Source of the DNA: Patescibacteria group bacterium
Lineage (GTDB): Bacteria; Patescibacteriota; Minisyncoccia; Phycocordibacterales; UBA918
Direction of reading: 5' to 3'
Length of the DNA stretch: 64,000 bases
Assembly: GCA_038065355.1 (NCBI GenBank)
Contig: JBBTRC010000010.1
Span: 11,452-75,451, forward strand
Shown: piece by piece, positions 10,801-41,363 of the stretch
How positions within the stretch are numbered: position 1 is the stretch's first letter
Layout of the letters: each line of letters starts with the position of its first letter
Notes under the pieces: generated by a model
Databases searched by the model: none
Told to the model about the DNA's origin: nothing
Seen by the model: only the letters and a program-made list of their open reading frames with translations
Program-made: the position numbers and the translations under genes

Positions 10801-13800
10801 TTAAATTTCCTCTGACGCAGGCACTACCTCAACGGTCAGCTCTTGATTGAAGACGGTTCCGGTAATCGGCTCACGACAGCTCAAGAGGTACTTGCTGGTG
10901 CTGTAGAGCGCACCGGTCGAGGCGCTATTCGCGTAGGTGAGCGGATGGTTGACCGACGCATCGAAACTGTCACTAACGCCGCCGGGACCCTGCACGGTGC
11001 AGTTGAGCGGATAGGCGGTATGAGCGCTCCACGATACGGTCGCCGCTTGTCCGGGGCGCAAGAGCGTCTGCGTTGAGGTGAGTGTCAAAGGAGGTTGTGG
11101 TACTGGCAAGGTGATAGATGTCGTCCGCGCGTTGTTCAGAGGATAATTCTGATCTGCTTCAGGATAGGTGTCGTACCCAGGGAAAGGCAAGCCGGGCGCG
11201 TCCATATTGATGCGCGAGAGCAGTGTGTGCGTGCCAAACGGCACCCCGTCAAATGCACGCCCCAGCCAGTTGGAAGACGTAAGTGGCGATATGATACCGC
11301 TACTAAAGGTTCCTATGCCGGCGGTACTTTCCATCGTGGCATTGACGCCAAAGGTGGTTTGATACACGCCGCCAAATTGCAGCTGAGCTCGGTATGAGAC
11401 TTGATCGCCGGCATACAGATCGCCCGGCCCGAGGTTGTCAATTACCATAAGTGCGTCGATGCTATCGTACATGCCAAGCACGGCGTCCGCGATGGCGCCA
11501 GTCGTGAGCATGCTTAGCGAGCCGGCTGCCAAATCAATCGACGGTTCACAATAATTTGTAGTGGGGTTCTTTCTTTGTCCGGGTGGGAAAGAGATTGATT
11601 GACCAAACGTGGGGCTGGCTGGATCGTTATCGATACATTGACCAGAAGAAATTGAACTTGTAGACGTTATCGGCACGCCACCATTGCCGACTACCACCGT
11701 CACATCACTGTTGTCGGCTTGACCGTCTAGACTGCGAGTACAAGTAATAGAGAACACGGTCGTGCTTGCCGAAAGCTGGAAGTTTTGAACAAAGTTGATC
11801 CGGTTGTTGACCGCCGAAAATTGAGCGCCCGGCGGTGTAGCAACCGCGTTAGTACAAGTGTCGGATGGGTTGAGATTGTCTCCGGTCCAAGCGAGGTCAA
11901 TCGTCGTTGGCTGTACCAGTGGGTCGTAGGGAATAGTAACAGTGCCACCGTCACCAGTACCGAACAATACTTTGTTGAAGCGACAACGTTCGGAGCCAGA
12001 GGCAACGCAGGTCATCCGCAGTTGATCTCCGTCGTTTAAGGCAACGCTCGGAATCTTGAAGATTCGCTGGGTGCTCTGGACGCAGGAACTCGAGTTTGAG
12101 GTGGGGTCATTTGAAGTCCAGATGGCACCTGGTATCTGTGTGCCGTTAAGGGCTAGGCTGAAAGTTGAAGAGCCGTTGTTTTGGTCGCAGTACCTGACTT
12201 GGATATCGTACGTGCCACTGCCACCAAGTGGGTGCGCAAATGGGAAAGTCACACCAGTCGTTCGATTAGTACCGCAACTTTGGTAATAGCCAGAACCGTT
12301 TAAAGTTATAAGTCCTGAACAGACTTTGCTGGTACCAGTGTTAAAAACTTCGGTGCCAGTAAGCTCCTCGGCTAGCGCGTACATATTGGTCTTCACCGCA
12401 GTACTACTAGCAGTCGAGGCCAACACTACGACCGTCGTTGTCGCCCATGCTTGTGCCCCTAGGTATTGCGGCGAAGTAGGAGGACTGTACAAGAGGTCGT
12501 ACGGACGCGAGCAGTAGGCTACGAAACGTGTCGAGGTAGAGATGAGTACATTGTTCAAAGTAGTGGTGCCACTACCGGCATGTATGACGCCGCCGCTTAC
12601 ACCGGTAATAGTGTACGAGGTGTTGTCGAGTCGTTTGGTCGTGATCGTGCAGTACTGAGCATTTTGTGCTGCCATCGTAATTTGGGTAACGGCCAGGCCG
12701 GTTTGCGCCGACTTGGTGCTAGTAGCCGGATTGGCGGTGATGCTCACCACCGCCGGCGGCACTGAAGAGCGTCCGGCTGATGATGACGCGTTTACCACCA
12801 CCGTAATCTGATCACTGCTTGAGGTAGCTGGGTAGCTGACTCCGTTAAAGGTGCTGGCTGGTCTGGAGCAAATGATTCGAAAGTCGGTGGTTGTCGCAAT
12901 AGTAATTGAAGTGAAGTTGCCACTAGTGAGCGCGGACGCTTGTCCGTACCCGCTCGGATTGGGACTCATGAGCGAGCCATTTTGGTAGGCGCGGTACTGA
13001 CAACTGCTCACATTTGCCGAGGTGAACTGCAGATTAGCAAACGCCCAGCCGAGAATAGGGTCGGGTGACGCAAAGTAGACAGGATCACTGCCGGGCAATG
13101 TGCTTGTGATCGTTACATTCGGCGACCCGGGTGGTGGTGGATTGGTGAGTACAATATCCACAGCGGCCACGGCCGAAGTACTCGCCACGTCGTTGAAACA
13201 TTGAATAAAGAACGTGCCGGACTCGGTGATGTGGTTGTTTGCTAAATCGTACGGATTGCCGCCGTTCAGACCGACATAACTATTGCTGGAAGCAAAGATG
13301 GGTACGCCGGGATTCGAGACAGTTTCAAACCACACCTTCGAACAGCGAGTGGCGAGCTGGCTGGTCCACGACACATCGAGTGGGCGCGCGTATCCAACGA
13401 CGGCATCAAAGGTGGTAGTGCCCGCCGGCGACGTCGTGATCGTGATGATCGGATCAACGGTCACGATCACTGGCTGTGCGCTACCACCTGTACAGGTAAG
13501 TGAATAGCTGATGCTGGCATTGGTCGGTGGTGTGACCTGCATTGTGCCACTGGTGGGTAAAGTTGGAACCGGAACAGTAAATGTATTCTGCCCGTCGGAG
13601 ATAACACAATTTGATACGTGGCCGTCTAAATACCAGCCAAGGTCGACCGGCGTACCGTTCAGAATGGCCGCGCTGGAGCCGCCGTTTACTGTCAACACAA
13701 CTTGATTGGGCACGTGGGATGCGAACGCGGGGATGGCCGAAAAGAAGTACAAAAACAGAATTCCACCGACGACCACGAGAAATGGGTTAAGGTATCGTTT

Positions 13801-13827
13801 AGTGACTGACATAGTGAAGTGGCTCAT
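10801..13827 (-). CDS. very large secreted/surface protein, Thr/Ser/Gly/Asn-rich (about 1008 aa)
   Basis: N-terminal signal/TM (MSHFTMSVTKRYLNPFLVVVGGILFLYFFSAIPAFA), long low-complexity beta-rich body; start placed at internal Met 2 nt after the upstream gene stop. Confidence 0.6.
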   Translation of the reverse strand: MSHFTMSVTKRYLNPFLVVVGGILFLYFFSAIPAFASHVPNQVVLTVNGGSSAAILNGTPVDLGWYLDGHVSNCVISDGQNTFTVPVPTLPTSGTMQVTPPTNASISYSLTCTGGSAQPVIVTVDPIITITTSPAGTTTFDAVVGYARPLDVSWTSQLATRCSKVWFETVSNPGVPIFASSNSYVGLNGGNPYDLANNHITESGTFFIQCFNDVASTSAVAAVDIVLTNPPPPGSPNVTITSTLPGSDPVYFASPDPILGWAFANLQFTSANVSSCQYRAYQNGSLMSPNPSGYGQASALTSGNFTSITIATTTDFRIICSRPASTFNGVSYPATSSSDQITVVVNASSSAGRSSVPPAVVSITANPATSTKSAQTGLAVTQITMAAQNAQYCTITTKRLDNTSYTITGVSGGVIHAGSGTTTLNNVLISTSTRFVAYCSRPYDLLYSPPTSPQYLGAQAWATTTVVVLASTASSTAVKTNMYALAEELTGTEVFNTGTSKVCSGLITLNGSGYYQSCGTNRTTGVTFPFAHPLGGSGTYDIQVRYCDQNNGSSTFSLALNGTQIPGAIWTSNDPTSNSSSCVQSTQRIFKIPSVALNDGDQLRMTCVASGSERCRFNKVLFGTGDGGTVTIPYDPLVQPTTIDLAWTGDNLNPSDTCTNAVATPPGAQFSAVNNRINFVQNFQLSASTTVFSITCTRSLDGQADNSDVTVVVGNGGVPITSTSSISSGQCIDNDPASPTFGQSISFPPGQRKNPTTNYCEPSIDLAAGSLSMLTTGAIADAVLGMYDSIDALMVIDNLGPGDLYAGDQVSYRAQLQFGGVYQTTFGVNATMESTAGIGTFSSGIISPLTSSNWLGRAFDGVPFGTHTLLSRINMDAPGLPFPGYDTYPEADQNYPLNNARTTSITLPVPQPPLTLTSTQTLLRPGQAATVSWSAHTAYPLNCTVQGPGGVSDSFDASVNHPLTYANSASTGALYSTSKYLLSCREPITGTVFNQELTVEVVPASEEI

Positions 13828-13829
13828 AA

Positions 13830-15287
13830 TTATGGTAATTCGCTTGGTGGCGCTTTTATGCGTTCTCTTCGCACCTCTGGTTCGAGGCGGCGCAGCATAA
13901 TCCACATGAGTAAAGCTGCTGCCATGACGATACCGGCATAGAACCAAAACGATTCACGGACGGGTTGTTCCGATACAAAATTGTTGACCGTTTTTCCAAG
14001 CGCTTCGGCGCAGGCATCAAGCGCTTCGCAAGCAAAGGTCTCTGTGTGCTTTTGGAGCCCCACCCAGTTGGAGGAAGTGTCCTCGGTCGGTCTTGTTGCA
14101 CTATCGGCCAGATCGCCAAAGCGCCGATCAAGCAGTTCGGAGTACAGTGTGAAGTTATGTAGCGTTACGTTGGGGCGTACCCGAACAAAGTCATAGCCGG
14201 TGAATTCGTCGTAGCCAAAAGTTTGTTGGAAGACCTGATCGCCGGTGGTGTCGGTCAACACAAAGCGGAGTGCAATCGGATCAGTCGGAGCTAAGGTGCC
14301 GTCATCACCACCTACTACATCAAAACAAGCCACCAGCGAGGAGTCGCGTTGCACTGGATAATCGGACAGGCCGATTACCGACACGTAATTAAACGTCGTG
14401 TTGCCGGTGGTGCCCCGAAATTCAATGGGGACGGACACGAGCGGTTGCAGAGTGTTCGCAGTGTGAAGAGTGGCATAGAGTGTGTAGCGACCGCCGACAA
14501 AAAATCGTTCCGAAAATTCCGTGGTGCGCGTGGCGCCAGGGATCAGGCGAACCGAATCAGACTTTTCTGAAGTCACGGCAGTGCCAAGCGGAACCGCGCC
14601 TTCCGTCAGCACGAGCCTGATTTCACTGTCGATAAGTGGTAAGGTGGCCTTGTTGGTAGTTTGTACACTGGCGGAAACGGGAGTGCCGAGAGTAAGAGCG
14701 ACAGTTTTTCCTTTCGCAACTGCCACGTCGTTAATCTTCGCAGTAATAACAACCGGGGAAGAAGCAACTCCTTGTTTGATGAGCGTTCCGGCACTCTGCT
14801 TCTTTGCGGTGTTGAGCGCATGGCCGAGTAGGGTAGTTTCGTTCCCCTGTATCACAAACACCCGATACGCGTAGGTGCCCGGTACTACACTGGTGGTGGT
14901 AAGAGAGAAAGGGATTTCAATGAGTTCGTGCGCCCGCAAAGTAAGCTCGTCGGGTAAGACGACAAAGTAGGCGGGCACTGTATCGTCTTCTCTTTGATAC
15001 ACCGCAACACCGATTCGCACACCACCGAGTGTGAATTCGCTTTGGTTCGTGATGCTCACGTAATCATTCCACGAGTCGCCGACCATTTGCTCTGCTTCTT
15101 GACCGATGATGACTGCACTAAGGTTGCCGCCGATTGGACACAAGGAGAGTGATTCGTCGGCTCCGGCGGTAGTTTCTGCGTGCACAGTCGAAACGCTCGG
15201 CGCGTAGAGCAGGAGTGAACTGCAAAACGTGAGCAAAATACCAGCCGAAATTTTTTTTAAGATCATATATACACCAACCGACGCCAT
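13830..15287 (-). CDS. secreted protein with signal peptide and C-terminal membrane anchor (485 aa)
   Basis: N-terminal signal peptide ...VSTVHA, C-terminal TM FWFYAGIVMAAALLMWIML followed by basic tail; co-transcribed with the 1008-aa protein. Confidence 0.6.
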   Translation of the reverse strand: MASVGVYMILKKISAGILLTFCSSLLLYAPSVSTVHAETTAGADESLSLCPIGGNLSAVIIGQEAEQMVGDSWNDYVSITNQSEFTLGGVRIGVAVYQREDDTVPAYFVVLPDELTLRAHELIEIPFSLTTTSVVPGTYAYRVFVIQGNETTLLGHALNTAKKQSAGTLIKQGVASSPVVITAKINDVAVAKGKTVALTLGTPVSASVQTTNKATLPLIDSEIRLVLTEGAVPLGTAVTSEKSDSVRLIPGATRTTEFSERFFVGGRYTLYATLHTANTLQPLVSVPIEFRGTTGNTTFNYVSVIGLSDYPVQRDSSLVACFDVVGGDDGTLAPTDPIALRFVLTDTTGDQVFQQTFGYDEFTGYDFVRVRPNVTLHNFTLYSELLDRRFGDLADSATRPTEDTSSNWVGLQKHTETFACEALDACAEALGKTVNNFVSEQPVRESFWFYAGIVMAAALLMWIMLRRLEPEVRRERIKAPPSELP

Positions 15288-21463: not shown

Positions 21464-23851
21464 CTATGTGTCTGTGCGGTTAAGCTTCTCCATTTCTTCC
21501 CAATTCGGCCCGATTTTCACTTCAGCCAAAATCGGGACTCCGTACGTCTCCTTCTCGTCGAGCGCGTGCTCCATGAGGTGAAGAAGCGGTGGTACCTGCG
21601 CTTTTACGTCGCTGGTTTTGACTTCAAACACGAGCTCATCGTGGATCTGAAGGAGGAGGCGGACAGTATCGACCAATTTGTGCCCTTTTATGTGCGCGGC
21701 AATCTGCACCATGGCGATGCGCACGATGTCGGCGGCCGTACCTTGAATCGGAGCGTTGATGGCCATGCGTTCCGCTTGCGCGCGGATAAACGGCACGCTT
21801 GAAGTGATGCCGGGGAAATGACGCCGGCGACCAAACAGAGTTTCGGTGTAGCCCTCTTTGCGAGCAGCTGTTTTTGTATCCTCCAAGTATTCGGAGAGAT
21901 GCGTGAAGGTTTGGAAGTAGGCAGTGAGGAAGGCTTGCGCTTCTTGGCGCGAAGTATCTCCGCCTAAATTTTGGCGGAGCGCATTGACGCCCATGCCGTA
22001 AAGGATGCCAAAGTTGATAACCTTGGCTTGGCGCCGCATGTTGTCGGTCACCTCCTCCGCATTCACGCCAAACACACGCAGTGCCACGCCGCGATGCACG
22101 TCCTCTCCGCGTTTGAAGATATCAATGAGGTTGGGGTCATGGGACATGATCGCGGCAATGCGCAACTCGATTTGAGAGTAGTCGATAGCGACCAGCGTGT
22201 AGCCTGGCGACGCAACAAAAGCTTTGCGGATAGCTCTTCCCTCTTTCGTGCGCGTAGGGATGTTTTGGATATTTGGATCTTTACTCCCCATCCGGCCGGT
22301 CGTGGTGCCAGTTTGGAGGAAAGTGGTATGCAGTTTGCCGTCCTTATCAACCATAGTCGGCAAGGTGTCGATGTAGGTTGAAACCAACTTTTGCAACTCC
22401 CGGTAACGGAGGATGTCCTCGATGATGGGGTGGGTGCCCTTCAGTTTTTCCAATTCTGACTCTTTGGTGGAACGCTGACCGCCGGCGGTTTTTCTGGCGT
22501 TCTTTATTTTGAGACCAAGCGTGTCAAAAAGAATATCTCCGAGTTGCTTCGGCGAATTGATGTTGAATTCTTTTCCGGCGTGCTGGTAGATGCGTTTTTC
22601 GAGCGTCACAAGTTCGACGTGCAGTTCTTTTGAGAGCTGTTTTAGATACTTCACGTCAAGCGTGATGCCGGTCTGTTGCATCATTTCAATAACTGGAATA
22701 AGCGGTTGCTCAATGTCGGTAAAAATATGCCAGAGGCCTTGTTCTTTCACCTTTTGCTTCAAGGCTTTGACTGTCTCTTCCCAGTTGTTGGCTTTGAGAA
22801 AAGAACGTCCGTATTCCAAAATGTCGGCAACGGTTCCGTTGGTGCGTTCGCTCTCCAAGAGCCAAAGCAAAATCGCCGCTTCTTTATGCGCCTCGGGCGT
22901 GATATTGTCATCAACCTCTGTGGCGGCTGGCGCCAGCTCAAATAACTTTCGCACTCGGTCCGTCACGGTGCGGAAACCAAACTCACTGAAGAGTTTGAGG
23001 ATGGCGTCGGTATCGGCGCGCTCGCGCCAGCGCGTGTCGGTGACGGTGAATGACGGAAGCGCGTCGGTGCGGATGGTCGCCAGCATTTTTGAGAATTCAG
23101 CTTCTTCTTTGCCTTCTTTCAAAAGCGAGACGAGGCGCGGAGAGAGACCAGCGTCAAGAAATGCCTGCTCGTTCTTGGCGAGCGCTTTGTATATTTTTTC
23201 GAGTGAACCGAAGGTGGTGATGAGGGTGGTCGCGGTCTTTTCGCCAATGCCGACGATGCCGGGAATGTTATCGGACGTGTCACCGCGGAGACCTTTATAG
23301 TCGGGCACCAACTTAGGCGGAAAGCCGAAGCGGTCAATGACCGTCGCTTCGTCATATAAAATGGTGTCTTTGATTCCTTTTTTCAGCGTGTAGACCTGCA
23401 CCCGTGTCTTGTCGACGCACTGCAGGGTGTCCATATCTCCCGACGCGATAACAACGCGGAGGTTTTTTTCTGTTTTTGTCAGGTGCGCGATGCTACCCAA
23501 GAGATCGTCAGCTTCGAAGCCCGATCGCTCAAATATAGCAATGCCGAACGCCGCAAAGACCTCGCGTGAGCGGTCGATTTGGGCCACGAGCGCCTCGTCA
23601 ATCTTTTCGCGCTTGGCTTTATAGCCGTCGAAGGCGTCGTGACGATAGGTAGGCTCCGGCAAGTCGTAGCACGCGACGAGGTACTCGGGCTTAAACTCTT
23701 CGATGATCTTGAGGAGCATCGTCACGACGCCGTAGAGCGCACCGGTCGGCTCGCCCGTCGGTGAAGAAAAATCCGGCAGAGCGTGGTACGCCCGATGCAG
23801 AATCGCATGCGCGTCGAGAATCACCAAGGTTTCCTGAGACGTTTTAGACAT
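21464..23851 (-). CDS. polA: DNA polymerase I
   Basis: 5'-3' exonuclease domain (LVILDAHAILHRAYHA...), family-A polymerase motifs (DYSQIELR, RRQAKVINFGILYGMG, QIHDELVFE); ORF extends to 23938, likely start MSKTSQETL. Confidence 0.9.
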   Translation of the reverse strand: MSKTSQETLVILDAHAILHRAYHALPDFSSPTGEPTGALYGVVTMLLKIIEEFKPEYLVACYDLPEPTYRHDAFDGYKAKREKIDEALVAQIDRSREVFAAFGIAIFERSGFEADDLLGSIAHLTKTEKNLRVVIASGDMDTLQCVDKTRVQVYTLKKGIKDTILYDEATVIDRFGFPPKLVPDYKGLRGDTSDNIPGIVGIGEKTATTLITTFGSLEKIYKALAKNEQAFLDAGLSPRLVSLLKEGKEEAEFSKMLATIRTDALPSFTVTDTRWRERADTDAILKLFSEFGFRTVTDRVRKLFELAPAATEVDDNITPEAHKEAAILLWLLESERTNGTVADILEYGRSFLKANNWEETVKALKQKVKEQGLWHIFTDIEQPLIPVIEMMQQTGITLDVKYLKQLSKELHVELVTLEKRIYQHAGKEFNINSPKQLGDILFDTLGLKIKNARKTAGGQRSTKESELEKLKGTHPIIEDILRYRELQKLVSTYIDTLPTMVDKDGKLHTTFLQTGTTTGRMGSKDPNIQNIPTRTKEGRAIRKAFVASPGYTLVAIDYSQIELRIAAIMSHDPNLIDIFKRGEDVHRGVALRVFGVNAEEVTDNMRRQAKVINFGILYGMGVNALRQNLGGDTSRQEAQAFLTAYFQTFTHLSEYLEDTKTAARKEGYTETLFGRRRHFPGITSSVPFIRAQAERMAINAPIQGTAADIVRIAMVQIAAHIKGHKLVDTVRLLLQIHDELVFEVKTSDVKAQVPPLLHLMEHALDEKETYGVPILAEVKIGPNWEEMEKLNRTDT

Positions 23852-23902
23852 AATGTCAGTATACTTTGTTTCTCCGACGTGCACTATAAAAAAACACTTT
23901 AC

Positions 23903-23930
23903 ACTTGACATAAGGTCAAGTATGTGTATA
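23903..23930 (+). promoter_or_regulatory. sigma70-like promoter TTGACA-N16-TATATT for the 24001 ORF
   Basis: near-consensus -35/-10; predicted transcript starts with perfect 9-bp hairpin CAAGCTACA-TGG-TGTAGCTTG and SD GGAAGGAAGGAA. Confidence 0.45.
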
Positions 23931-24000
23931 TTTAACAAGCTACATGGTGTAGCTTGTACCTTAATCAGTACCTCACAACTCGAATGGAAGGAAGGAACTA

Positions 24001-24603
24001 ATGCAAACCGCTCATGTCATTCTGAAGAGCATTTCTCCGCTTTTGCTCAATCCGATGACCGACGAGACGCTTGATGAGCTTTTCGCCGGCTCCGGAGCAC
24101 GCAAATTGCGGAAGACTGACGTTACGCAGGAAGCAGTCGCCGCCAAGAAGGTCATCCGCGACGATGACGGCAACATCGGCCTGCCGGTCGAATACCTCTT
24201 CGCCGCCTTGGTGAACGCCGGTCGCTTCGTGAAGTTTGATTCCAAAAAGAACTTCACCAACGCAACGTCATCGCTGGTGCCCGGCCTGCTTACGCTCGGC
24301 GAAATGTTCTACCCGTTCAAAGATCAGAAAACGCCCTGGACGATCGACAAACGCCGCGGCCGTCTGGCCTCAACCGGTGTCGCCGTCGCCATCATTCGTC
24401 CCAAGTTCAAAGATTGGGCGATTGACCTCACGGCAGAATTCGACGAGGCGCAGGTGAGCGAATCGAAGATTCGCGAACTTTTCAACGCGGCCGGTCGCTT
24501 TTCCGGCCTCGGCGATTTTCGGCCAGCGTGCAAGGGTCCGTTTGGGCGCTTTACGATCGACAGCTGGGAAGTCGTCAAGTCAGAAGTTCGTGAAGCCGCC
24601 TGA
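24001..24603 (+). CDS. hypothetical protein with RAMP-like glycine-rich loop (200 aa)
   Basis: strong SD; C-terminal GRFSGLGDFRPACKGPFGRFTI resembles the G-rich loop (GxGxxxxxGhG + beta-strand) of Cas5/Cas6/Cas7 RAMPs; N-terminal SPLLLN strand. Confidence 0.5.
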   Translation: MQTAHVILKSISPLLLNPMTDETLDELFAGSGARKLRKTDVTQEAVAAKKVIRDDDGNIGLPVEYLFAALVNAGRFVKFDSKKNFTNATSSLVPGLLTLGEMFYPFKDQKTPWTIDKRRGRLASTGVAVAIIRPKFKDWAIDLTAEFDEAQVSESKIRELFNAAGRFSGLGDFRPACKGPFGRFTIDSWEVVKSEVREAA

Positions 24604-25916
24604 CGTACAAGTCTGAATGGCAAGCATGAGCACTCTGCTCCTTCTTGCTATTCTCGCCCGTTCTGTGGGTCGGAGTCTGTGTCATGGACTCCGACTTTAC
24701 ATTACGCACTGTGACGTGTCGTCGGGCAACGTCCGGTCCAGCAGGTTGCGTTGTGCTTAGTTGCGGGTTGGGAGTTTGCAAACTCCCAACAGCTTACGGA
24801 TGGGTAAACTATGGCGCAGTGGGCTCATCCGCGCTCCAGTACGTTGCAGTCACCTATGGATCGGGAGCTTCTGGAGCTCCCGATTTTTCAGACCCAATTT
24901 TGAACGCTTAGTCTACGCGTAGTCACCTGGACTAGTGCATACTTAAGGTCGGGAGTTTCGCCTCTCGACACCTTACCGTTCGGAGTGGTGATGTATGGCT
25001 GTGTCCAGTTAGCCAAAGCAAGGTCCACTACAGGCCAGAGGACTCTTCCTTTGGCAACCTTTGTTCGGTATACTCCCGTTCACTTTACCCGACCAACCTT
25101 TGGTTTACTCCAGCATGGGTTGGATGCACTCCGGTGCTTCCAACATGAATAGAGTAATCTTGGGTGCACTTGACTTGGCTCTTGTCGCGTTAACCACGGT
25201 AAGGGTCGAGAGCTTGGTCTCTCGACAATTCTCAGCTCGGCTTAGTGGGCTGGACTCCCCCAATCTCCACTACGATGGATCACTGTACTGGTCAGGAATC
25301 ACAAGATTCCTGACACATTTGCACTACTGTGCGGCACGCACCACTATCCTGCGTCATGGTGTACTCCGGTTAGCTCTGGGCTGGAAGCTAGAGATAGCTT
25401 CCAGCAAAATATCGCTCTGTAAGGTTGGGTACAGTTGAGTGGTCTCTTGTGTCGTCACCTCATCTTTGGGTTGGAGGGTTTCGACTCGTCAACACTCTTT
25501 ACAGCAAGGTATTGTAGCGTAGCGTTGGCTTCACTACCCTCTCGTAGAATTAGGCTTAGTCGAGTATGGGCGGGGAGGCCTGGGCCTCCCCGCATATCTT
25601 TATTCAAGTTTTGTTCCTTACGTCCTGCGGAGCCTTGCTCCGCCTGATCGCTGGATGTGTATCCAGCCCGATGAGTCCGAAAGGACGAAATCAGTTTTGT
25701 TCTGAGGTCACGTGCGTCTACGTGCGTTCGGCCACTCCGAACTTATGTTTGGGTCGGGAGAGTCCTGACTTTCCCGACATTCTTGCTGTACGCAATTGTG
25801 TGGTCCACCATCCAGTGGTTCCGCATGGTTAGCTACGCCGGAGTAGCGTCCGGGCAGGGAATCTCACCCGAGATTCCCTGCAGTTCTTTGAAAATTAGTC
25901 TTGAAAGGAGACTGTA
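24604..25916 (+). repeat. 1.3-kb non-coding region A densely packed with perfect hairpins, including GTCGGGAG/CTCCCGAC-family repeats
   Basis: family hairpins at about 24669-24695, 24948-24969, 25205-25226, 25753-25778; other perfect stems 24767-24790, 24861-24883(+T5), 25292-25313, 25380-25405, 25570-25593, 25855-25880; no ORF with RBS. Confidence 0.65.
25644..25694 (+). ncRNA. hammerhead ribozyme-like motif, type III topology (possibly degenerate: U4->C)
   Basis: CUGAU-C^-[GCUGGAU-GUGU-AUCCAGC]-CCGAUGA-[GUCC-GAAA-GGAC]-GAAA-UCAG: stems I, II, III, the GAAA and cleavage triplet AUC all in canonical arrangement; only core U4 replaced by C. Confidence 0.45.
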
Positions 25917-27743
25917 ATGAAGCATCCCAACATGGCGAGAGCCTTTCCCCGCCATATCCATGAAGAGACGAAAGACAGCCAGCGCGAAGCGTTGAACTTT
26001 CTCACGGAACATGGGTGTGGTCTCATCGAAAAGCCGACCGGTTCTGGTAAGACCGCCACCGGTATCACGTTTTTACGAGCGTATGAAAAAGCTGGCGTGC
26101 CAGTGCTTTTCTATCTCGTGCCCAACAAAACACTCGCAGCACAAGTGCAGGAACAATACCCTGAAGTTCGAGTCGTCTACGGACGAAACGAACATCCCTG
26201 TCTGTACTACGAGGACAGCTATCAAGCTGATGAAGTACCGTGTTCCATGCTCGGCGACTGTCCCCACCGTGTCGATCAAGATACTGGACAGACACACGAA
26301 CCGGGAGCTTTGCCTTGCCCGTATCTTCAGCAGAAGTACGAAGCGAAGCAGGGCACGATCGTCGTCGCTACCTATGCCTTCTATCTTTTCGCCCATTTCT
26401 TTCAAAAGGAATGGGGAAAGAAACAGGAAGCGATGGTGATTGACGAGGCACATCGCCTTGCCGAATCTATCCGCAGCGTGCTTTCCTATGAGATCACTGA
26501 TTACCAGCTCGGCCGGGCACTTGAAGCGCTTTCTGGCTTTGCTGATGATCAAACCATTCTGCGATTAGAGGAATTCCAAACGTCGTTTCTCAAGATCATC
26601 AAGAGCAAACCTTCGGGCCAGCGGATGATTCTGACAGAGGACGACATCTACGAACTTCTCTATCACGTCCAGCTCTTGCAACCAACGCGCCTGCGCCAAC
26701 AAATTGCCGAAGCAGTACGTAAAGGCCGGCTCGATCCGATCGCTGACCGCGAGACGCTCCGGCGTCTTGAGGATATTACCTACAGCCTGACGCGTTACCT
26801 GCGTTCGCTCGAGTATTCAGTGAAAGATGGGAAACGCAAAGCGCTTAACTACATCTTCGCCTACTGGCAATCAGAAAAGGGCGAGCATGACAAAGTGCAG
26901 TATCGGCTAGTCGTAAAGGCGTATGCGGTTGGACCGCTGATTGCCAAAATGTTGCCGAAACGTCTCTTGGCCATGAGCGCGACGATCAGCGATCCAGACA
27001 TGTTGAAGATCGAAAGCGGGATTGATTTGCCGTTTTTGTCTTTGACATCTGACTGGCCGTCTGAGAACACGCGCATCTTCATGCCGACTGACTCACCAAA
27101 CTTGGCCGTCAATAAACGCGGCCGAGATGGGGTGGTGCGAACGCAAAATACGCGGGAAAAGACCAAAATCCTGCGCAAGGTCGCCAAGGCATGTAAACGC
27201 TTTGGCGACCAAGGACTGCGGTCACTCGTTGTGGTTGTCTCAAATGACGAACGACACAAATTCCTGGCCCTAGCGGAAGAGGAAGGTGTCGATGTCATCA
27301 GCTACGATGCAGAACGAAAGCCACGAGAGGTCGCCCAAGCCTTTAAAGATGGCGAGGGTGACGTGCTTGTTGGCACTACCGCTCACTTTGGCGAAGGAAT
27401 CGACCTGCCCGACGGCACGGCGCCGATCACTTTCTTTCTGCGGCCAGGCTACCCAAATCCTACTGAACCAGGTACGCAATTCGAGGCAGATCGTTTTGGC
27501 AGTCGACGGTGGGCTCTGTGGCAATGGCGCGTTATCGTGCAAGCGCTACAAGTCCGCGGTCGGAACGTGCGGAGCGTAGAAGACAAGGGTGTAACCATCT
27601 TTGTTTCCCAACAATTCCGCAAGTTTCTATTACATTCATTGCCGGAGTGGCTGAAACCCGCCTACCGCGGCAACAGCACCTGGGAACAATGCCTCGACGA
27701 AACGGAGGCGTTACTTCTGAAGCGGAAACGACTGAAAAAGTAG
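25917..27743 (+). CDS. DinG/XPD/YoaA-family Fe-S DNA helicase (superfamily 2, DEAH)
   Basis: motif I EKPTGSGKT, four Cys between motifs Ia and II (C95,C110,C115,C134: Fe-S domain), motif II VIDEAHRL, motif III SAT, C-terminal HFGEGIDLPDG and QxxGRNVRS motifs; SD AAGGAG. Confidence 0.8.
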   Translation: MKHPNMARAFPRHIHEETKDSQREALNFLTEHGCGLIEKPTGSGKTATGITFLRAYEKAGVPVLFYLVPNKTLAAQVQEQYPEVRVVYGRNEHPCLYYEDSYQADEVPCSMLGDCPHRVDQDTGQTHEPGALPCPYLQQKYEAKQGTIVVATYAFYLFAHFFQKEWGKKQEAMVIDEAHRLAESIRSVLSYEITDYQLGRALEALSGFADDQTILRLEEFQTSFLKIIKSKPSGQRMILTEDDIYELLYHVQLLQPTRLRQQIAEAVRKGRLDPIADRETLRRLEDITYSLTRYLRSLEYSVKDGKRKALNYIFAYWQSEKGEHDKVQYRLVVKAYAVGPLIAKMLPKRLLAMSATISDPDMLKIESGIDLPFLSLTSDWPSENTRIFMPTDSPNLAVNKRGRDGVVRTQNTREKTKILRKVAKACKRFGDQGLRSLVVVVSNDERHKFLALAEEEGVDVISYDAERKPREVAQAFKDGEGDVLVGTTAHFGEGIDLPDGTAPITFFLRPGYPNPTEPGTQFEADRFGSRRWALWQWRVIVQALQVRGRNVRSVEDKGVTIFVSQQFRKFLLHSLPEWLKPAYRGNSTWEQCLDETEALLLKRKRLKK

Positions 27744-28560
27744 TCGCTGCAATATCGTGCGGTATCCTTCGCTCCTGTACAGTTAGGTTAGCTACGGTCG
27801 ACTCGACTCCGGGCGGAAGAGCTCCGGTTCTCCCGCGACGTTAGGTCCTGTTTGGTCAGGTTCACACCAGTTCGGTCACCTGTGGTCCGGGCTGGGGATT
27901 AACATCTCCAGCAGAATTTAGTGCAGTGTGGGCTTCCCTATACTTCTCTGGCCTACGCAATCGCACTCTGCGGGCTGGAACGTAAATACGTTCCAGCAAC
28001 ATTCTGTCCGGCAAGGCACGGTTATCTGCGCTAGGTTGGGTCAAACTCAAGTATTGTATGGGCTGGGAAAGCTTCGCTTTCCCTGCTTCGTATCGTATTG
28101 TCGGCTTTAGTGAACCTTACTTGCCCGCTCTGTAGAGTCCTAGTCTAAGGGTCGGGAGATGAACGTCTGCCGACAATATTTCTCCGGGCTTACCTGTCGC
28201 TAGCTTCTGTTTTGTGCACCAATGCACTCTAAGGGTCGAGGAATCGTCTGACTCCTCGACAACTTTCTGTCTGGTGGCGTTGCCTCCAGTCCACTCCGGT
28301 TGCGTGGGGCTGAGTAAGCTATGGGTCAGTGTCTCAGGACACTGACAACATATCGTGACGTTCTGTCGGGTAACTTGCGCCATTCTTGGTAAGGATTAAC
28401 TAGTCTGTGAGTTGGGAGACTTTGTCTCCCAACAACTTTGAGCTAGGTAACGTCCACTAGAGTTAGTCGTCCTGGCGTTCTCTGTGCTTTCGTCACCTTC
28501 TGTATCGGTCGGGAGCGAAAAAGTCGCTCCCGACGTTTCTCTTGAAAGAAAGGAAATCCC
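27744..28560 (+). repeat. 0.8-kb non-coding region B, paralogous to region A (hairpin family plus decayed hammerhead unit)
   Basis: family hairpins at about 28151-28174, 28235-28260, 28411-28433, 28508-28534, variants 28062-28086; GCTGGAACGT-AAAT-ACGTTCCAGC (27974-27997) and GTCAGTGTC-TCAG-GACACTGAC (28325-28346) are covarying homologues of region A hairpins. Confidence 0.6.
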
Positions 28561-28929
28561 ATGCCGCTTGAAATCGGTAAAGGTTGTCGCGGCATGACGT
28601 CAGTGCATGCCAAAAGACACAAGAAGTTGATGTTTCACCACACAGTCACGCGAGAAGCGTTTCATTTCGTCAGTTGGTTGGTTGACCAGAATGAGATTCT
28701 TGAAATTGATCTTGGTAAGGTCGGCACCTATCGAGGTAATACTGAGTTTCGGGTCGACATCGACGACAACACCTTGAGCTTTTTAGTCAAAGGAAACTTC
28801 TCGTACCAAATTATACGAACTACCATCCGACCAATCGTCGCTTACCAACCAAATGCGCTGTTAAAATTTCTTCAGCGTTGTGAGGAAGAGTGGCAAAAGT
28901 CGATGGGGAATCCAGTCGAAACACGATGA
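28561..28929 (+). CDS. hypothetical protein (122 aa)
   Basis: ORF with SD AAGGAAA; no recognisable motif; flanked on both sides by family hairpins. Confidence 0.45.
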   Translation: MPLEIGKGCRGMTSVHAKRHKKLMFHHTVTREAFHFVSWLVDQNEILEIDLGKVGTYRGNTEFRVDIDDNTLSFLVKGNFSYQIIRTTIRPIVAYQPNALLKFLQRCEEEWQKSMGNPVETR

Positions 28930-29044
28930 CTTGCAGTAGCGTAAACCTATCTTCGCCCAGGTATTCTTGACTGTGGTTGCCTGCGGGTGGGGGTTATTTC
29001 CCCCACAACACTCAAGACTATATTTCTACAGTTATTCTTTACGG

Positions 29045-29103
29045 GTCGGGAGCTTCTTTTTGAGACTCCCGACAAACACCTCAAATAACGAGGTGTTTTT
29101 TAT
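29045..29103. terminator. family hairpin (GTCGGGAG-N13-CTCCCGAC) followed by bidirectional terminator CACCTC-AAATAAC-GAGGTG-T6
   Basis: second hairpin is flanked by A- and T-runs, between the 122-aa ORF and convergent tsaE. Confidence 0.5.
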
Positions 29104-29547
29104 TTAAAAAACTTGGGCGATTCGTTGTCCGTTTTTCTGTATCTCAAGCTGGATTGTCACGAGACTACGAGGAAGCGTGGCGGAGATTTTTTCGGCCCAT
29201 TCAATGCAAAAGAGCGTGTGTGACTGTTGCAGAAATTCAGAGAAACGCAGCGGCGCTAGCTCGGACACACTCTCGATGCGGTAGGCGTCCATGTGAAGGA
29301 GGGTTGGCCACTGTGCGTCGGTAGTTTCGTACTGTTTCAGAATAATAAAGGTTGGACTGGTGACCGTTTCGGTGACACCGAGATGGCGCGCGAGTGTTTG
29401 CACAAAAGTTGTTTTCCCCGCTCCGAGGTCACCCGAGAGCGCAATGACTGTAGCACTCTCGGTCGAGAGTGCTCGACAGCGCTCGATGACGCGAAGAACA
29501 AAAGCGTCGAGCTCTTCGAGCGTGTGAATGGCGATTGTCTCTATCAT
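29104..29547 (-). CDS. tsaE: tRNA threonylcarbamoyladenosine biosynthesis protein TsaE
   Basis: 147 aa; [13 protein letters not shown]-loop and SPTF motif of YjeE/TsaE. Confidence 0.8.
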
Positions 29548-37764: not shown

Positions 37765-38051
37765 AGGAGCGCTTCTGGCGCCGACGAACCGAGTCGTTCC
37801 TTTAACACGTTCAGGATGGCTTTTTTGTGGAGAAAGATTTCTGACTTCATCACACTCGGCACCTGAATACTAACTGTCTTGGTGGCAACTGTGTACGAGA
37901 TAGCCTCGGCAGAGATGTCAAACGTGGTGACTTCCTTTATCGCAATGGCGCACTCTCTTTCAACGGTCGCCTGGGGTGGTTTTAAGCGTTTGCGATAGCT
38001 TTCAAACAAATCGCCCACCTTTTTAATCCGTATGTCAGGTGGTTTCCTCAT
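37761..38051 (-). CDS. small protein downstream of dnaN (DUF721-like?)
   Basis: 96 aa, position equivalent to the yaaA/DUF721 slot after dnaN; weak assignment. Confidence 0.3.
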   Translation of the reverse strand: MRKPPDIRIKKVGDLFESYRKRLKPPQATVERECAIAIKEVTTFDISAEAISYTVATKTVSIQVPSVMKSEIFLHKKAILNVLKERLGSSAPEALL

Positions 38052-38053
38052 GC

Positions 38054-39148
38054 CTACTTGTTCATGGGCATCACCAAATAGCGAAGAGATTTATCGGTGG
38101 CACCTTCCATTACCATGGCTCGCCCAAGACCGGCAAAACTAAGCTTTACCGAATCATCAAACACATGGGTGAGTGGATCCATAATGTACTGTTGGTTGAA
38201 ATTGAGCCTAAGCTCTTCACCGGTCACGTCGGCTTTAATAGTGTCGGTGATATGGCCAACGTCATTATTTTGTGAGGAGATAGTGAGTGAGTTCGTGGTT
38301 ACTAAAAGCGACACTTGGCGAAACTTATTCAAGAATATTGAGGTTTTTTTGAACGAACGGAGAAGGTCGTCTTTGAGCACAACCACATGTGACACGTACT
38401 CTTTGGGAATAATCTGCGCGTAGTCAGGAAAACTTCCCGTCACCAGTCGAGAAGAAATGTATATGCCGTTTGTGAATTCGATGGCGCACTGGTTCTCGCT
38501 CACCGTACAGACAGGGTCACCTTCGGCGACCTCGCATACGCGAGCGAGCTCGAGAGCGTTTTTTTGCGGAATCATGACGGATTGCTCAAGAATAAAACCT
38601 TTTTGGGGAACCGTCTTTTCCATCAAACGGAACGAGTCGGTCGCCACAAAGGTGAGAGAGTGCTCTTTCTTCTGCTGAATGAAAACGCTTCCGAGCTCTG
38701 GTTTAATTGAGGTGAGTGAAGCGGCGAACGCCACACTTTTAATGCCGAGTGCGAACATGTTCGCTTGAATTGTCCCGCCGGTTTTTTTGAGTTTATTAAA
38801 TTTTGGAAACTCGTCAACTGAAAAAAGTTTAATGGAAGTATTTGTTGAGGCGGTCTCTATTTGGAGAGTTTGGTCTTCGGTACGGAGGGTGATTTGTGGT
38901 TGATTAATGTATTGAATACTTTGAAGAAATGTCTGTGTAGGGACAGCAATAATTCCTTCCTCGCTCACCTTCGCAGTAATACTTAATTCAACACTCACCT
39001 CTAAATTTGTAGCCTGAAGAATAATTTTACCTTTTACCGCTTCGAGCCGAACACATTGTAAAACTGGTAAGGTGACGTGACGAACACTAATTCGACTAAG
39101 GAGCTCAAGTTGTTTAAGTAGTTCGCTGTGAGTAATTGTTATTTCCAT
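38054..39148 (-). CDS. dnaN: DNA polymerase III beta sliding clamp
   Basis: 364 aa, three-domain DnaN-like; directly downstream of dnaA. Confidence 0.9.
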   Translation of the reverse strand: MEITITHSELLKQLELLSRISVRHVTLPVLQCVRLEAVKGKIILQATNLEVSVELSITAKVSEEGIIAVPTQTFLQSIQYINQPQITLRTEDQTLQIETASTNTSIKLFSVDEFPKFNKLKKTGGTIQANMFALGIKSVAFAASLTSIKPELGSVFIQQKKEHSLTFVATDSFRLMEKTVPQKGFILEQSVMIPQKNALELARVCEVAEGDPVCTVSENQCAIEFTNGIYISSRLVTGSFPDYAQIIPKEYVSHVVVLKDDLLRSFKKTSIFLNKFRQVSLLVTTNSLTISSQNNDVGHITDTIKADVTGEELRLNFNQQYIMDPLTHVFDDSVKLSFAGLGRAMVMEGATDKSLRYLVMPMNK

Positions 39149-39475
39149 ATTTTATTTATACATCATTTTACTCACTATTATTAAGGGTGTGGAGATGTGT
39201 AAAAACCAATTATGTGTCGTATTTTAAAGCTAGATTTCTGGTGATAAATACTCATAAAGTGGTGAAATCCTAGTCTGCCGCACGAACTACTTGGGGGTAA
39301 GGTAGAGGTACTGTTTTTTGTTGGGGAAAAAGTTCTACTGTCCCTCTCCCCACTCCCAGCTACCCAGATTCTTATAAGTCACTCTTTACCACACTACTCA
39401 CCATTCTTTTCCACAGATGGTGAGTAATTTTAAAATGATTGTGGTGTTAAAAAATAATCTCCGGAAATTCGGAGG
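39149..39475. other. candidate oriC (dnaA-dnaN intergenic, AT-rich DUE plus DnaA-box-like 9-mers)
   Basis: AT-rich tract 39150-39185; TTTTCCACA (about 39407) 1 mismatch to TTATCCACA, TTTACCACA and TGTGGAGAT 2 mismatches; dnaA terminator CTCCG-GAAATT-CGGAG at 39459-39474. Confidence 0.4.
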
Positions 39476-40858: not shown

Positions 40859-41018
40859 ACTTCAGACAACCAGTAATGCAATAGGCGTAACTTGCATTAT
40901 ACTCGTGTCAAAAGAACTGTAAATGTTTTTGGCGTTTTAGGCTATTTCAAAACCATTTTTCAAATTTGAAAATGCAACTGTGCATAACGTGTGCACAACT
41001 ATTCAACCAATGTAGAGA

Positions 41019-41331: not shown

Positions 41332-41363
41332 GAGCTTTTTTTGATTGTTATACTAGAGTATCT

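What the first reader, a model, noticed from the sequence alone, without database searches (positions are those of the whole stretch)
24001..29103. Five-kb accessory locus: RAMP-like ORF, Fe-S DinG/XPD helicase and orphan ORF embedded in 2.3 kb of hairpin-repeat DNA
Between polA and tsaE, about 45% of the locus is non-coding, in an otherwise tightly packed window. The non-coding parts are not random. At least 10 hairpins share the design (A)AGGGTCGGGAG-loop(5-13 nt)-CTCCCGAC-AAyTyT, with approximate positions 24669, 24948, 25205, 25753, 28151, 28235, 28411, 28508 and 29045, plus variants at 24767, 24861 and 28062. Stem changes are compensatory: GTTGGGAGA/TCTCCCAAC, GTCGAGAG/CTCTCGAC, GTCGAGGA/TCCTCGAC. 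That pattern is the signature of selection on RNA or ssDNA structure rather than on sequence. The three protein genes all have consensus-like SD sites and the first has a near-consensus sigma70 promoter, so the locus is probably expressed. The gene content is a protein with a Cas5/6/7-like glycine-rich loop plus a DinG-type helicase. That is loosely reminiscent of type IV CRISPR-Cas (Csf/Cas6 plus CasDinG). However the repeats are neither identical nor evenly spaced, and this helicase keeps a 4-Cys Fe-S domain, so this is not a canonical CRISPR system. Candidate interpretations: (a) a novel RNA-processing or defence module in which the RAMP-like protein recognises the hairpin family; (b) a decayed mobile element carrying ribozyme repeats, since a hammerhead motif lies inside; (c) a housekeeping DinG/YoaA helicase that happens to sit in a REP-like repeat hotspot.
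Basis: partly seen in the sequence, partly recalled or inferred. Interest (0 to 1): 0.85.

Follow-up and report, generated by a model that had tools for sequence, protein, structure and literature searches.

The report
Helicase-linked VIPR guide-RNA locus
This locus in a Patescibacteria genome is a VIPR system, a CRISPR-like RNA-guided DNA-recognition system first described in 2026, here carrying 24 guide-RNA genes, an XPD-type helicase and a small unknown protein, so it is a new and unusually large example of a known kind.

Summary
The locus has 24 family hairpins, not about 12. All lie on the + strand, spaced 78-101 nt, and none occurs elsewhere in the 64-kb window.

The 55 nt before each hairpin form 11 in-register pentamers, Y-N-N-N-S. 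Each unit is therefore a variable pentamer tract plus a conserved 3' hairpin.

The 200-aa protein is a Vipr protein. Its family profile hits the solved SUSP1 Vipr structure (E=6e-15). Its model has a Cas7-type RAMP fold and keeps Vipr's RNA-contact residues.

This matches VIPR systems (bioRxiv 10.64898/2026.04.26.720920). That paper also describes YNNNG-type repeats, hammerhead-interspersed arrays and helicase accessory genes.

Five other independent Patescibacteria loci, in different neighbourhoods, share the layout vipr, array, ~600-aa XPD-like helicase, array. Four of the six helicase-type loci, the window among them, also carry the 122-aa ORF.

It is not a CRISPR system, a REP hotspot or a decayed element.

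Expression, RNA processing, targets and the helicase's role are inferred. One guide, read by the published two-bases-then-skip rule, matches the conserved FHPQGGGQPS motif of AlaX-like cellular genes. This is unexplained and may be chance.

The parts
23905..23932 (+). Sigma70-like promoter, TTGACA-16 nt-TATATT. It is the only + strand match in the locus and the likely start of one long primary transcript.
   Evidence: 11 of 12 hexamer matches. No other + strand promoter-like site lies in 23700-29300.
24001..24603 (+). vipr gene: a 200-aa Vipr protein, a minimal single-RRM RAMP related to Cas7.
   Evidence: A profile of 45 homologues hits PDB 36pp_D 'SUSP1 Vipr protein' at E=6e-15. phrog_4652 matches at E=7e-18. 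The AF2 model has pLDDT 89.7. Foldseek top hits are type VII Cas7, Csm3 and Cmr4. The G-loop GLGDFRPACKGPFGRF and R133 are conserved.
24604..25916 (+). vrRNA array 1 with 13 units. Each unit is about 11 pentamers Y-N-N-N-S followed by GG and a hairpin tail. Tails lie at 24669-24695, 24767-24790, 24860-24884, 24948-24969, 25034-25055, 25119-25144, 25205-25226, 25291-25314, 25380-25405, 25470-25493, 25570-25593, 25753-25778 and 25854-25881.
   Evidence: Period-5 Fourier signal z=13. Units are listed.
25627..25643 (+). Short tail-like hairpin GCGGAGC-ctt-GCTCCGC directly before the hammerhead. L004 has the same arrangement.
25644..25694 (+). Type III hammerhead ribozyme motif inside array 1. The predicted cleavage site follows C25649. 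The core reads CCGAUGA instead of CUGAUGA.
   Evidence: Rfam Hammerhead_3 scores 20 bits, E=1.4. Seven homologous copies occur in L004, L006 and L010. The three-helix fold is supported by covariation: 98.4% of cells pair, 10 of 16 pairs change on both sides, and 0 of 500 shuffles reach this.
25917..27743 (+). Accessory helicase of 608 aa, SF2 XPD/DinG family, with a four-Cys putative Fe-S insert (C95, C109, C115, C134) and a DEAH box.
   Evidence: Pfam Helicase_C_2, ResIII and DEAD_2. Best solved relatives are archaeal XPD at E=6e-15. The PADLOC profile typeIV_DinG PDLC01439 matches at E=5e-42, but NCBIfam cas_csf4 scores only 19.9 bits against a cut-off of 400. It is conserved next to vipr in all six helicase-type loci, the window among them.
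27744..28560 (+). vrRNA array 2 with 9 units. Tails lie at 27813-27836, 27891-27912, 27974-27997, 28062-28086, 28151-28174, 28235-28260, 28325-28346, 28411-28433 and 28508-28534.
   Evidence: Autocorrelation peaks at lags 5, 10, 15 and 20. Units are listed.
28561..28929 (+). Small conserved accessory protein of 122 aa, function unknown.
   Evidence: It is 39% identical to the L004 ORF at E=1e-28. Homologues also occur in L010 and L008 at other positions or orientations in the locus. There are no Pfam, PADLOC, NCBIfam or PDB hits. Only about 9 small homologues exist among 1.84 billion representatives.
28930..29073 (+). vrRNA array 3 with 2 units. Tails lie at 28987-29006 and 29045-29073. The last unit is short.
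29074..29103 (+). Intrinsic terminator: AAACACCUC-loop-GAGGUGUUU followed by a U-run.

Best explanation
The locus is a chromosomal VIPR (Viral Interference Programmable Repeat) system of the helicase-associated kind, in a Patescibacteria genome.

**Shown here**
- A Vipr-family RAMP protein.
- 24 head-to-tail units, each about 11 pentamers (conserved pyrimidine, three hypervariable bases, conserved G/C) followed by a conserved hairpin tail.
- One hammerhead in the array.
- An XPD-type helicase and a small conserved protein, both linked to vipr across independent genomes.

**Inferred from the SUSP1 and P. fulva work**
- One promoter drives a transcript of about 5.2 kb.
- The transcript is cut into guide RNAs (vrRNAs) of about 85-100 nt. 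The hammerhead would cut about 6 nt 3' of the short tail-like hairpin at 25627-25643, and unknown nucleases would cut elsewhere.
- Vipr protomers polymerise along each vrRNA, one per pentamer. They hold the conserved bases and present the variable ones.
- The filament binds double-stranded DNA through gapped pairing and forms an R-loop or triplex.

**Inferred by analogy with Cas3 and CasDinG**
- The helicase is recruited to the bound target. It unwinds or strips the target, which turns binding into stronger interference.
- The likely targets are phages or other mobile elements of the host. None was identified.
For: **Protein**
- The family profile hits the solved SUSP1 Vipr protein.
- The model has a RAMP fold.
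- SUSP1 RNA-contact residues R138, D177, W178 and R179 (10.64898/2026.04.26.720927) align to R133, D172, F173 and R174. In the 45-sequence alignment, R133 and R174 are invariant, and D172 and F173 are conserved in at least 90% of sequences.

**RNA**
- The period-5 signal is strong.
- Phase 1 is pyrimidine in 93% of positions and phase 5 is G/C in 86%. Phases 2-4 carry at most 0.06 bits. The same pattern holds in L004, L006 and L008.
- Variable positions are 27.8% identical between units, close to random.
- Tails are kept by compensatory change.
- SUSP1 vrRNAs, read in the same way, show NNGGT pentamers plus a structured tail.

**Published description.** The discovery paper describes alternative YNNNG repeats, hammerhead-interspersed arrays, helicase or nuclease accessory genes in types III-V, and 25% of systems in cellular chromosomes.

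**Linkage**
- All six loci whose Vipr is at least 44% identical to the window's (the window, L004, L006/L007, L008, L010, L013) have vipr, an array, a ~600-aa helicase and a further array, in unrelated neighbourhoods.
- The small ORF occurs in four of the six.
- The window holds no cas genes and no CRISPR array.
Against: - Nothing about expression, processing, RNA-protein binding or targeting could be tested.
- The pentamer consensus is Y-N-N-N-S, not the characterised YNNGG. Its pairing rule has never been measured.
- No target was found in the window or in related loci.
- Five of six guides gave no hit in viral contigs under the published rule, and both guides tried under a three-base rule gave none.
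- The one perfect match is to a cellular housekeeping-type gene family, not a phage gene.
- The window's hammerhead has a core substitution and may be inactive.
- I could not see the paper's figures or data tables. The type number, and whether this very locus is in their set, are unknown.
Confidence: 0.85

Rival explanations
1. The machinery is the same VIPR system, but its job is to control cellular genes rather than mobile elements. These could be the organism's own genes or those of a bacterial host of this putative episymbiont.
For: - The locus is chromosomal, sits between polA and tsaE, and is identical in a second sample.
- Guide 20 (unit at 28325), read by the two-bases-then-skip rule, matches the FHPQGGGQPS motif of AlaX-like cellular genes perfectly over 10 consecutive codons. 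The skip falls on the wobble base in all 241 hits.
- That gene family is almost absent from phages.
Against: - Only one of six guides tested gave any hit.
- The motif is rich in Gly and Pro, so it is unusually well conserved at codon positions 1 and 2.
- None of the 120 genome hits listed was a Patescibacteria genome.
- No such motif occurs in the window or the related loci.
- My rough estimate of the chance of such a match is about 1e-3 to 1e-2 per guide, and six guides were tried.
Confidence: 0.08
2. It is a degenerate or atypical type IV CRISPR-Cas system: a Cas7-like subunit plus CasDinG, with a decayed CRISPR array.
For: The PADLOC profile typeIV_DinG PDLC01439 matches the helicase end to end at E=5e-42. 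The 200-aa protein has a Cas7-like fold.
Against: - There is no array of near-identical repeats.
- The segments between hairpins are pentamer-coded, not free spacers.
- No Csf1, Csf3, Cas6 or adaptation genes are present.
- NCBIfam cas_csf4 scores 19.9 bits against a cut-off of 400.
- The closest solved helicases are XPD, and no CasDinG appears among the hits.
- The protein's sequence family is Vipr.
Confidence: 0.03
3. It is a remnant of a mobile element carrying ribozyme and hairpin repeats, with no present function.
For: A hammerhead is present. In L004 the locus abuts a serine recombinase and tRNA genes. Flanking genes differ between loci, which implies mobility.
Against: - All three ORFs are intact and conserved at 39-68% identity between distant loci.
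- Pentamer register and tail pairing are maintained in all 24 units while the sequence diverges. This requires selection.
- A strong promoter and terminator frame the locus.
Confidence: 0.02
4. It is a housekeeping DinG/YoaA-type repair helicase that happens to sit in a REP-like repeat hotspot.
For: The helicase belongs to the XPD/DinG family, which also includes repair enzymes.
Against: - The hairpins occur nowhere else in 64 kb.
- All are on one strand and in 5-nt register with their upstream tracts.
- The helicase scores far below the DinG and YoaA equivalog cut-offs, at 27 bits against 598-680.
- The helicase travels with vipr and the arrays into unrelated neighbourhoods.
Confidence: 0.02

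Closest known systems
VIPR type II systems of Escherichia phage SUSP1 and a Pseudomonas fulva prophage (bioRxiv 10.64898/2026.04.26.720920; structures in 10.64898/2026.04.26.720927)
   Same: Both have a homologous ~200-aa Vipr RAMP protein with a conserved G-loop and thumb arginine. Both have ~100-nt guide units made of 9-16 pentamers, with fixed and hypervariable positions, followed by a conserved structured 3' tail. In both, arrays flank the protein genes and there are no cas genes.
   Different: - The pentamer here is Y-N-N-N-S, not Y-N-N-G-G. The first G is free and the second is G or C.
- The tail is a plain hairpin whose stem differs between units, not an invariant pseudoknot.
- There are 24 guides instead of 4.
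- The accessory genes are an XPD-like helicase and a 122-aa protein, not a DNA-binding vap1.
- The host is a Patescibacteria chromosome, not a phage.
Enzyme-associated VIPR types III-V (same paper; predicted nucleases or helicases, some in defence islands; hammerhead arrays shown for types I and V)
   Same: Both are cellular loci with an accessory enzyme, alternative pentamer consensus and hammerheads within arrays.
   Different: The type cannot be assigned, because the figures and data tables are not held. The paper tested only types III and V, by small-RNA sequencing. No helicase accessory protein has been characterised. The 122-aa protein is not mentioned in the text I could read.
Type IV-A CRISPR-Cas (Csf complex plus CasDinG)
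   Same: Both pair a RAMP-based RNA-guided complex with an XPD/DinG-family helicase. Interference is probably by binding plus unwinding rather than by a dedicated nuclease.
   Different: This locus has no CRISPR array, no Cas6, Csf1 or Csf3, and a single RAMP. The guide is read non-contiguously. From my own knowledge, CasDinG has only a vestigial Fe-S domain without the cysteines, whereas this helicase keeps four Cys.
Type I Cascade-Cas3
   Same: The logic is similar: a RAMP filament on a guide RNA forms an R-loop and then recruits an SF2 helicase.
   Different: The helicase family differs (XPD-like, 5'-3', against Cas3, 3'-5' with an HD nuclease). No nuclease domain was detected here. There is no adaptation module.
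REP/BIME-type intergenic hairpin repeats
   Same: Both are short GC-rich hairpins with conserved flanks, repeated many times in non-coding DNA.
   Different: REP elements are dispersed genome-wide and occur in both orientations. These hairpins are confined to one locus, lie on one strand, are regularly spaced, and are phased with pentamer tracts.

Membership tests
VIPR system | A Vipr protein: a RAMP homologue with RRM core, G-loop and thumb, and sequence-related to known Viprs | tested here: met
   Profile against PDB 36pp_D SUSP1 Vipr gives E=6e-15 over residues 5-188. phrog_4652 matches at E=7e-18. The AF2 model has pLDDT 89.7, and its best folds are Cas7 and Csm3.
VIPR system | Conservation of the residues that hold the fixed bases of each pentamer (SUSP1 R138, D177, W178, R179) | tested here: met
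   They align to R133, D172, F173 and R174. In the 45-sequence alignment, R133 and R174 are invariant, and D172 and F173 are conserved in at least 90% of sequences. H17, which contacts G1, is N17 here.
VIPR system | vrRNA genes: at least 4 tandem pentamers with conserved positions alternating with hypervariable ones (YNNGG, or NNNGG, YNNNG, NNNNG) | tested here: met
   There are 11 in-register pentamers per unit. Phase 1 is Y in 93% of positions, phase 5 is S in 86%, and phases 2-4 carry at most 0.06 bits. The same holds in L004, L006 and L008. Period-5 z=13.
VIPR system | A conserved structured 3' tail after the repeat tract | tested here: met
   Each unit ends in GG, a hairpin and A-A-y-w-U-U. 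Of 168 stem cells, 163 pair, against a shuffle mean of 131.9. Pairs change on both sides.
VIPR system | A minimal locus (vipr plus accessory gene or genes) with long non-coding flanks and no CRISPR array or cas genes | tested here: met
   There are three genes and 45% non-coding DNA. PADLOC and NCBIfam find no Cas hits for the two small proteins. TRF finds no CRISPR-like array in 64 kb.
VIPR system | vrRNAs are expressed, processed to about 100 nt and co-purify with Vipr | not testable with these tools
   Only a promoter and a terminator frame the locus. No expression data are available.
VIPR system | Gapped recognition of DNA targets, with two paired bases and one skipped base, usually the codon wobble base | tested here: inconclusive
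   There is no local target. One of six guides hit under the NNx rule. All 241 hits fall in one cellular gene family with the skip at the wobble base. Both guides tried under NNNx gave none.
Type IV CRISPR-Cas | A CRISPR array of near-identical direct repeats separated by unique contiguous spacers | tested here: not met
   Tail stems differ between units, and the inter-tail segments are pentamer-coded. TRF finds no array.
Type IV CRISPR-Cas | A multi-subunit Csf complex (Csf1, Csf2, Csf3, Cas6/Csf5) | tested here: not met
   Only one RAMP gene is present. There are no PADLOC or NCBIfam Csf or Cas6 hits.
Type IV CRISPR-Cas | The CasDinG (Csf4) helicase | tested here: inconclusive
   PADLOC PDLC01439 matches at E=5e-42 over the full length. 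However, NCBIfam cas_csf4 scores 19.9 bits against a cut-off of 400. The closest solved structures are XPD, and no CasDinG appears.
XPD/DinG (Rad3) SF2 helicases with an Fe-S domain | Helicase motifs with DEAD_2 and Helicase_C_2 domains, and a four-Cys insert between Walker A and the DEAH box | tested here: met
   The insert aligns to the Thermoplasma XPD Fe-S/arch region. C95, C115 and C134 are invariant in four loci, and C109 is missing in L008. Cluster binding itself was not tested.
Hammerhead ribozyme, type III | Three helices around the CUGAUGA...GAAA core, with a cleavable N-U-H site | tested here: inconclusive
   The fold is supported by covariation across 8 copies. Relatives score 26-39 bits, at E=7e-5 to 0.34. 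The window copy has CCGAUGA and scores 20 bits against a gathering score of 48.5. Its activity is unknown.
REP/BIME repeats | Dispersed through intergenic regions genome-wide, unlinked to particular genes | tested here: not met
   All family hairpins in 64 kb lie inside the locus. The family travels with vipr and the helicase in five other independent loci. The rest of the genome is not available.

The most novel reading that the evidence does not exclude
The helicase-linked Patescibacteria clade uses a relaxed pentamer in which only two bases are fixed. It still reads two bases and skips one, and at least one guide is aimed at an ultra-conserved motif of a cellular gene (AlaX-like FHPQGGGQPS) found in other bacteria and archaea. 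On this reading a reduced-genome episymbiont would use a VIPR-plus-helicase machine on cellular genes, its own or its host's, rather than on phages.
Probability: 0.07. Interest if true: 0.85.

Novelty: new member of a known kind. Interest (0 to 1): 0.42.

Why it matters
VIPR systems were described only in 2026 and are proposed as forerunners of CRISPR. Only the minimal phage type has been studied in depth. This locus is a compact, complete example of the unstudied helicase-coupled kind, with several useful properties:
- 24 natural guides;
- a relaxed pentamer consensus whose pairing rule is unknown;
- a hairpin tail defined by covariation;
- a third conserved protein.

It offers material to test three questions. 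How does a helicase couple to a Vipr filament? Which of the three free bases are read? How are long arrays processed? It also shows that a careful reading of raw sequence could recover the outline of such a system.

Tried and rejected
- **Rfam.** Nothing in the locus reaches a gathering score. There is only a weak hammerhead hit and a chance Yfr10-like hit on the last tail plus terminator.
- **Tandem Repeats Finder.** It does not see the pentamers, which are too degenerate.
- **Phage homologues of the 200-aa protein.** They sit in early or lysogeny regions without an XPD helicase, which says little about function.
- **H17 and base specificity.** I tested whether SUSP1 H17 (N17 here) explains loss of the first G. 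L011's protein also has N there but keeps GGC pentamers, so the correlation is not clean.
- **Local target search.** Five pairing rules were run against the window and related loci. No match rose above shuffled guides.
- **Collection scans.** Eight viral scans gave one hit. The genome and metagenome scans of that same pattern hit only the AlaX-like motif.
- **Reading decoded guides.** Decoding all guides to degenerate peptides by eye showed nothing else recognisable.
- **The 122-aa ORF.** The single-sequence AF2 model was too poor to use, at pLDDT 51. A profile of four homologues found nothing in the PDB.
- **Second sample.** The same locus in another sample (L256) is 99.97% identical. It gives no information on guide turnover.

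Full report
**1. What is in the sequence**

The region between polA (21464-23938, - strand) and tsaE (29104-29547, - strand) holds three + strand ORFs:
- 24001-24603, 200 aa
- 25917-27743, 608 aa
- 28561-28929, 122 aa

Each has a visible Shine-Dalgarno site. Non-coding DNA is 2304 of 5103 nt (45%).

A promoter scan finds one + strand sigma70-like site at 23905-23932 (11 of 12 matches) and a strong intrinsic terminator at 29074-29098. No other + strand promoter-like site lies between them.

Inverted-repeat searches confirm the hairpin family. A family-specific search of the whole window finds it only between 24669 and 29073.

**2. The hairpins are the ends of regularly spaced units**

I allowed G-U pairs and one mismatch, and required phased upstream sequence. 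This gives 24 hairpins: 13 between the first two genes, 9 after the helicase and 2 after the third ORF. Spacing is 78-101 nt, except for one 183-nt gap and a short last unit.

Over the outer seven stem pairs, 163 of 168 cells pair. Column shuffles give a mean of 131.9 and a maximum of 143. Pairs 2, 3, 6 and 7 switch between different Watson-Crick pairs.

Conserved flanks are T-N-Y-G-G before the stem and A-A-y-w-U-U after it.

**3. The segments between hairpins carry a 5-nt code**

- The first array has a strong Fourier signal at period 5 (z=13). Both main arrays show autocorrelation peaks at lags 5, 10, 15 and 20. The ORFs show period 3 instead.
- Anchored on the hairpin, the preceding 55 nt form 11 pentamers. 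Position 1 is T in 73% and a pyrimidine in 93% of cases. Position 5 is G or C in 86%. Positions 2-4 are essentially uniform, at 0.06 bits or less.
- The variable positions of different units are 27.8% identical, close to random.
- Each unit is thus a unique variable tract plus a conserved tail. This is the logic of a guide RNA.

**4. The 200-aa protein is a Vipr protein**

- Pfam, PADLOC and NCBIfam give nothing. PHROGs gives phrog_4652, of unknown function, at E=7e-18.
- The protein is 100% identical to a hypothetical protein of a Patescibacteria MAG. At least 120 homologues exist, and the few that carry a source name are Patescibacteria.
- A profile of 45 homologues hits one solved structure, 36pp_D 'SUSP1 Vipr protein', at E=6e-15.
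- The AlphaFold model is confident (pLDDT 89.7). Its best structural matches are Cas7 of type VII, Csm3 and Cmr4.

**5. What VIPR is**

Two 2026 preprints describe Viral Interference Programmable Repeat systems. Their main points are:
- The system is a ~20-kDa ancestral RAMP (Vipr) plus ~100-nt vrRNAs. Each vrRNA has 9-16 YNNGG pentamers followed by a conserved 3' tail.
- One protomer binds per pentamer. The GGY bases are held by the protein, and the NN bases pair with DNA while every third target base is skipped.
- The papers also report alternative consensus forms (NNNGG, YNNNG, NNNNG), hammerhead-interspersed arrays and seven types. Types III-V carry predicted nucleases or helicases. A quarter of systems lie in cellular chromosomes.
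- One of the five founding hits has a UniProt accession of the A0A1F series.

Read in the same way, the SUSP1 locus shows NNGGT pentamers and a structured tail next to its vipr gene.

The SUSP1 RNA-contact residues R138, D177, W178 and R179 align to R133, D172, F173 and R174. In the 45-sequence alignment, R133 and R174 are invariant, and D172 and F173 are conserved in at least 90% of sequences. H17, which reads the first G, is N17 here. This fits the loss of that G. The correlation is not clean, though, because L011's protein also has N there and keeps GGC pentamers.

A literature search found no other reports of the family.

**6. The module is conserved**

Context was fetched for eight homologues. 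All six loci whose Vipr is at least 44% identical to the window's share one layout. These are the window, L004, L006/L007, L008, L010 and L013. The layout is vipr, a 1.2-2.2 kb non-coding array, a ~600-aa XPD-like helicase, and a further array. Their flanking genes are unrelated.

- Each locus has its own tail stem sequences but the same flanks and pentamer register. Unit counts range from about 8 to about 29.
- In L004 the locus abuts a serine recombinase, a LOOT RNA and tRNA genes.
- More distant homologues (39% identity or less) lie in phage-like contigs. They lack the helicase and have canonical GGC-NN pentamers.

**7. The helicase**

- It has the DEAD_2 and Helicase_C_2 domains of the XPD/DinG family.
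- Its closest solved relatives are archaeal XPD, then human XPD and FANCJ. No CasDinG or bacterial DinG appears at E of 0.001 or better.
- The four-Cys insert aligns with the XPD Fe-S/arch region. Three of the four Cys are invariant in four loci.
- One PADLOC type IV DinG profile matches end to end (E=5e-42). NCBIfam's Csf4, DinG and YoaA equivalogs are all missed by a wide margin.
- I therefore call it an XPD-like VIPR accessory helicase, not CasDinG.

**8. The 122-aa ORF**

It is a real gene.
- Homologues occur in L004 (39% identity, E=1e-28), in L010 between vipr and the helicase, and in L008 on the opposite strand.
- The family is tiny, with about 9 small homologues among 1.84 billion representatives.
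- It matches no known family or structure. The single-sequence model was unusable.

**9. The hammerhead**

- The window motif at 25644-25694 has homologues in L004 (1 copy), L006 (4) and L010 (2).
- An ungapped alignment of the eight copies supports the three-helix type III fold. Of the stem cells, 98.4% pair. Ten of 16 pairs change on both sides. None of 500 shuffles reaches this, and slid controls pair at 25-46%.
- In L006 and L010 the cleavage site lies about 9-10 nt after a vrRNA tail. In the window and L004 it lies about 6-7 nt after a short tail-like hairpin. The ribozyme would therefore set the 3' end of the upstream RNA.
- The window copy reads CCGAUGA where all others read CUGAUGA. 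It may be weakened.

**10. Targets**

- No guide matches the window or the related loci above shuffled controls under five rules.
Two were tried under a three-base rule.
- Only the guide of the unit at 28325 hit, with one viral contig.
- The same pattern gave at least 120 hits in each of the genome and metagenome collections.
- All 241 hits are one site. Its reverse complement encodes FHPQGGGQPS, exactly so in 237 of 241, in an AlaX/AlaRS-related protein. Every skipped base falls on the codon wobble position. Hosts range from Pseudomonas and Streptomyces to archaea, with GC from 0.23 to 0.75.
- The family is nearly absent from phages. It is absent from the window and from the related loci.
- A random 20-base pattern should give only a few hits in these collections. 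A crude bound puts the chance of landing on so widespread a motif at about 1e-3 to 1e-2 per guide, and six guides were tried.
- The wobble alignment fits the published logic, but a cellular target does not fit a defence role. I leave this as an unexplained lead.

**11. Verdict**

It missed the pentamer code, and the system is no longer novel. The locus is a new, large, helicase-coupled member of the VIPR family.

Expression, processing, the pairing rule for Y-N-N-N-S guides, the targets and the roles of the helicase and the small protein are inferences. They need the experiments listed under next steps.

Noticed in passing
window 28270-28346 (guide and tail of the unit at 28325): Read as two bases then one skipped, this guide perfectly matches the conserved FHPQGGGQPS motif of AlaX-like cellular genes in at least 241 public contigs. 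The skip falls on the wobble base every time. Whether this is a real target or chance is unresolved.
   Followed up: partly
L004 6299-6427 (- strand): A LOOT RNA (Rfam RF03000, 75 bits) lies just upstream of a serine recombinase gene (6579-7904) that abuts the VIPR locus. tRNA genes lie downstream at 13091-13177 and 13804-13875. This suggests the VIPR locus there is part of an integrated element.
   Followed up: no
L013 8686-12249: In this relative the tails are nearly identical (AGCGGGAGTCA-ttaact-TGACTCCCGCT, six copies) and are followed by U-runs, like intrinsic terminators. Its vrRNAs may be made by termination rather than by processing.
   Followed up: no
L006 8961, 9243, 9596, 9880; L010 9046, 9804; L004 9742: Related loci carry one to four canonical hammerheads inside their arrays, each starting a few bases after a tail. 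The window has a single copy with a core U-to-C change.
   Followed up: yes
L010 9180-9530; L008 13891-14430 (- strand); L004 12506-12880: Homologues of the 122-aa ORF sit at different positions and orientations within helicase-type VIPR loci. It is a third, previously unnamed, recurrent component, present in 4 of 6 loci.
   Followed up: partly
L011 9612-9656; L012 8846-9068: More distant Vipr homologues in phage-like contigs have canonical GGC-NN pentamer arrays and no XPD helicase. The helicase-linked clade therefore appears to be a distinct cellular branch.
   Followed up: partly
window 38001-43000: This stretch has lower G+C (0.43-0.48) than the rest of the window (about 0.52). It was not examined.
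   Followed up: no
L256 (ENA ERZ1292628 contig, 24.5 kb): The same polA-VIPR-tsaE locus occurs in a second sample at 99.97% identity, with two differences, both in the 122-aa ORF. The guide set is stable between these samples.
   Followed up: yes
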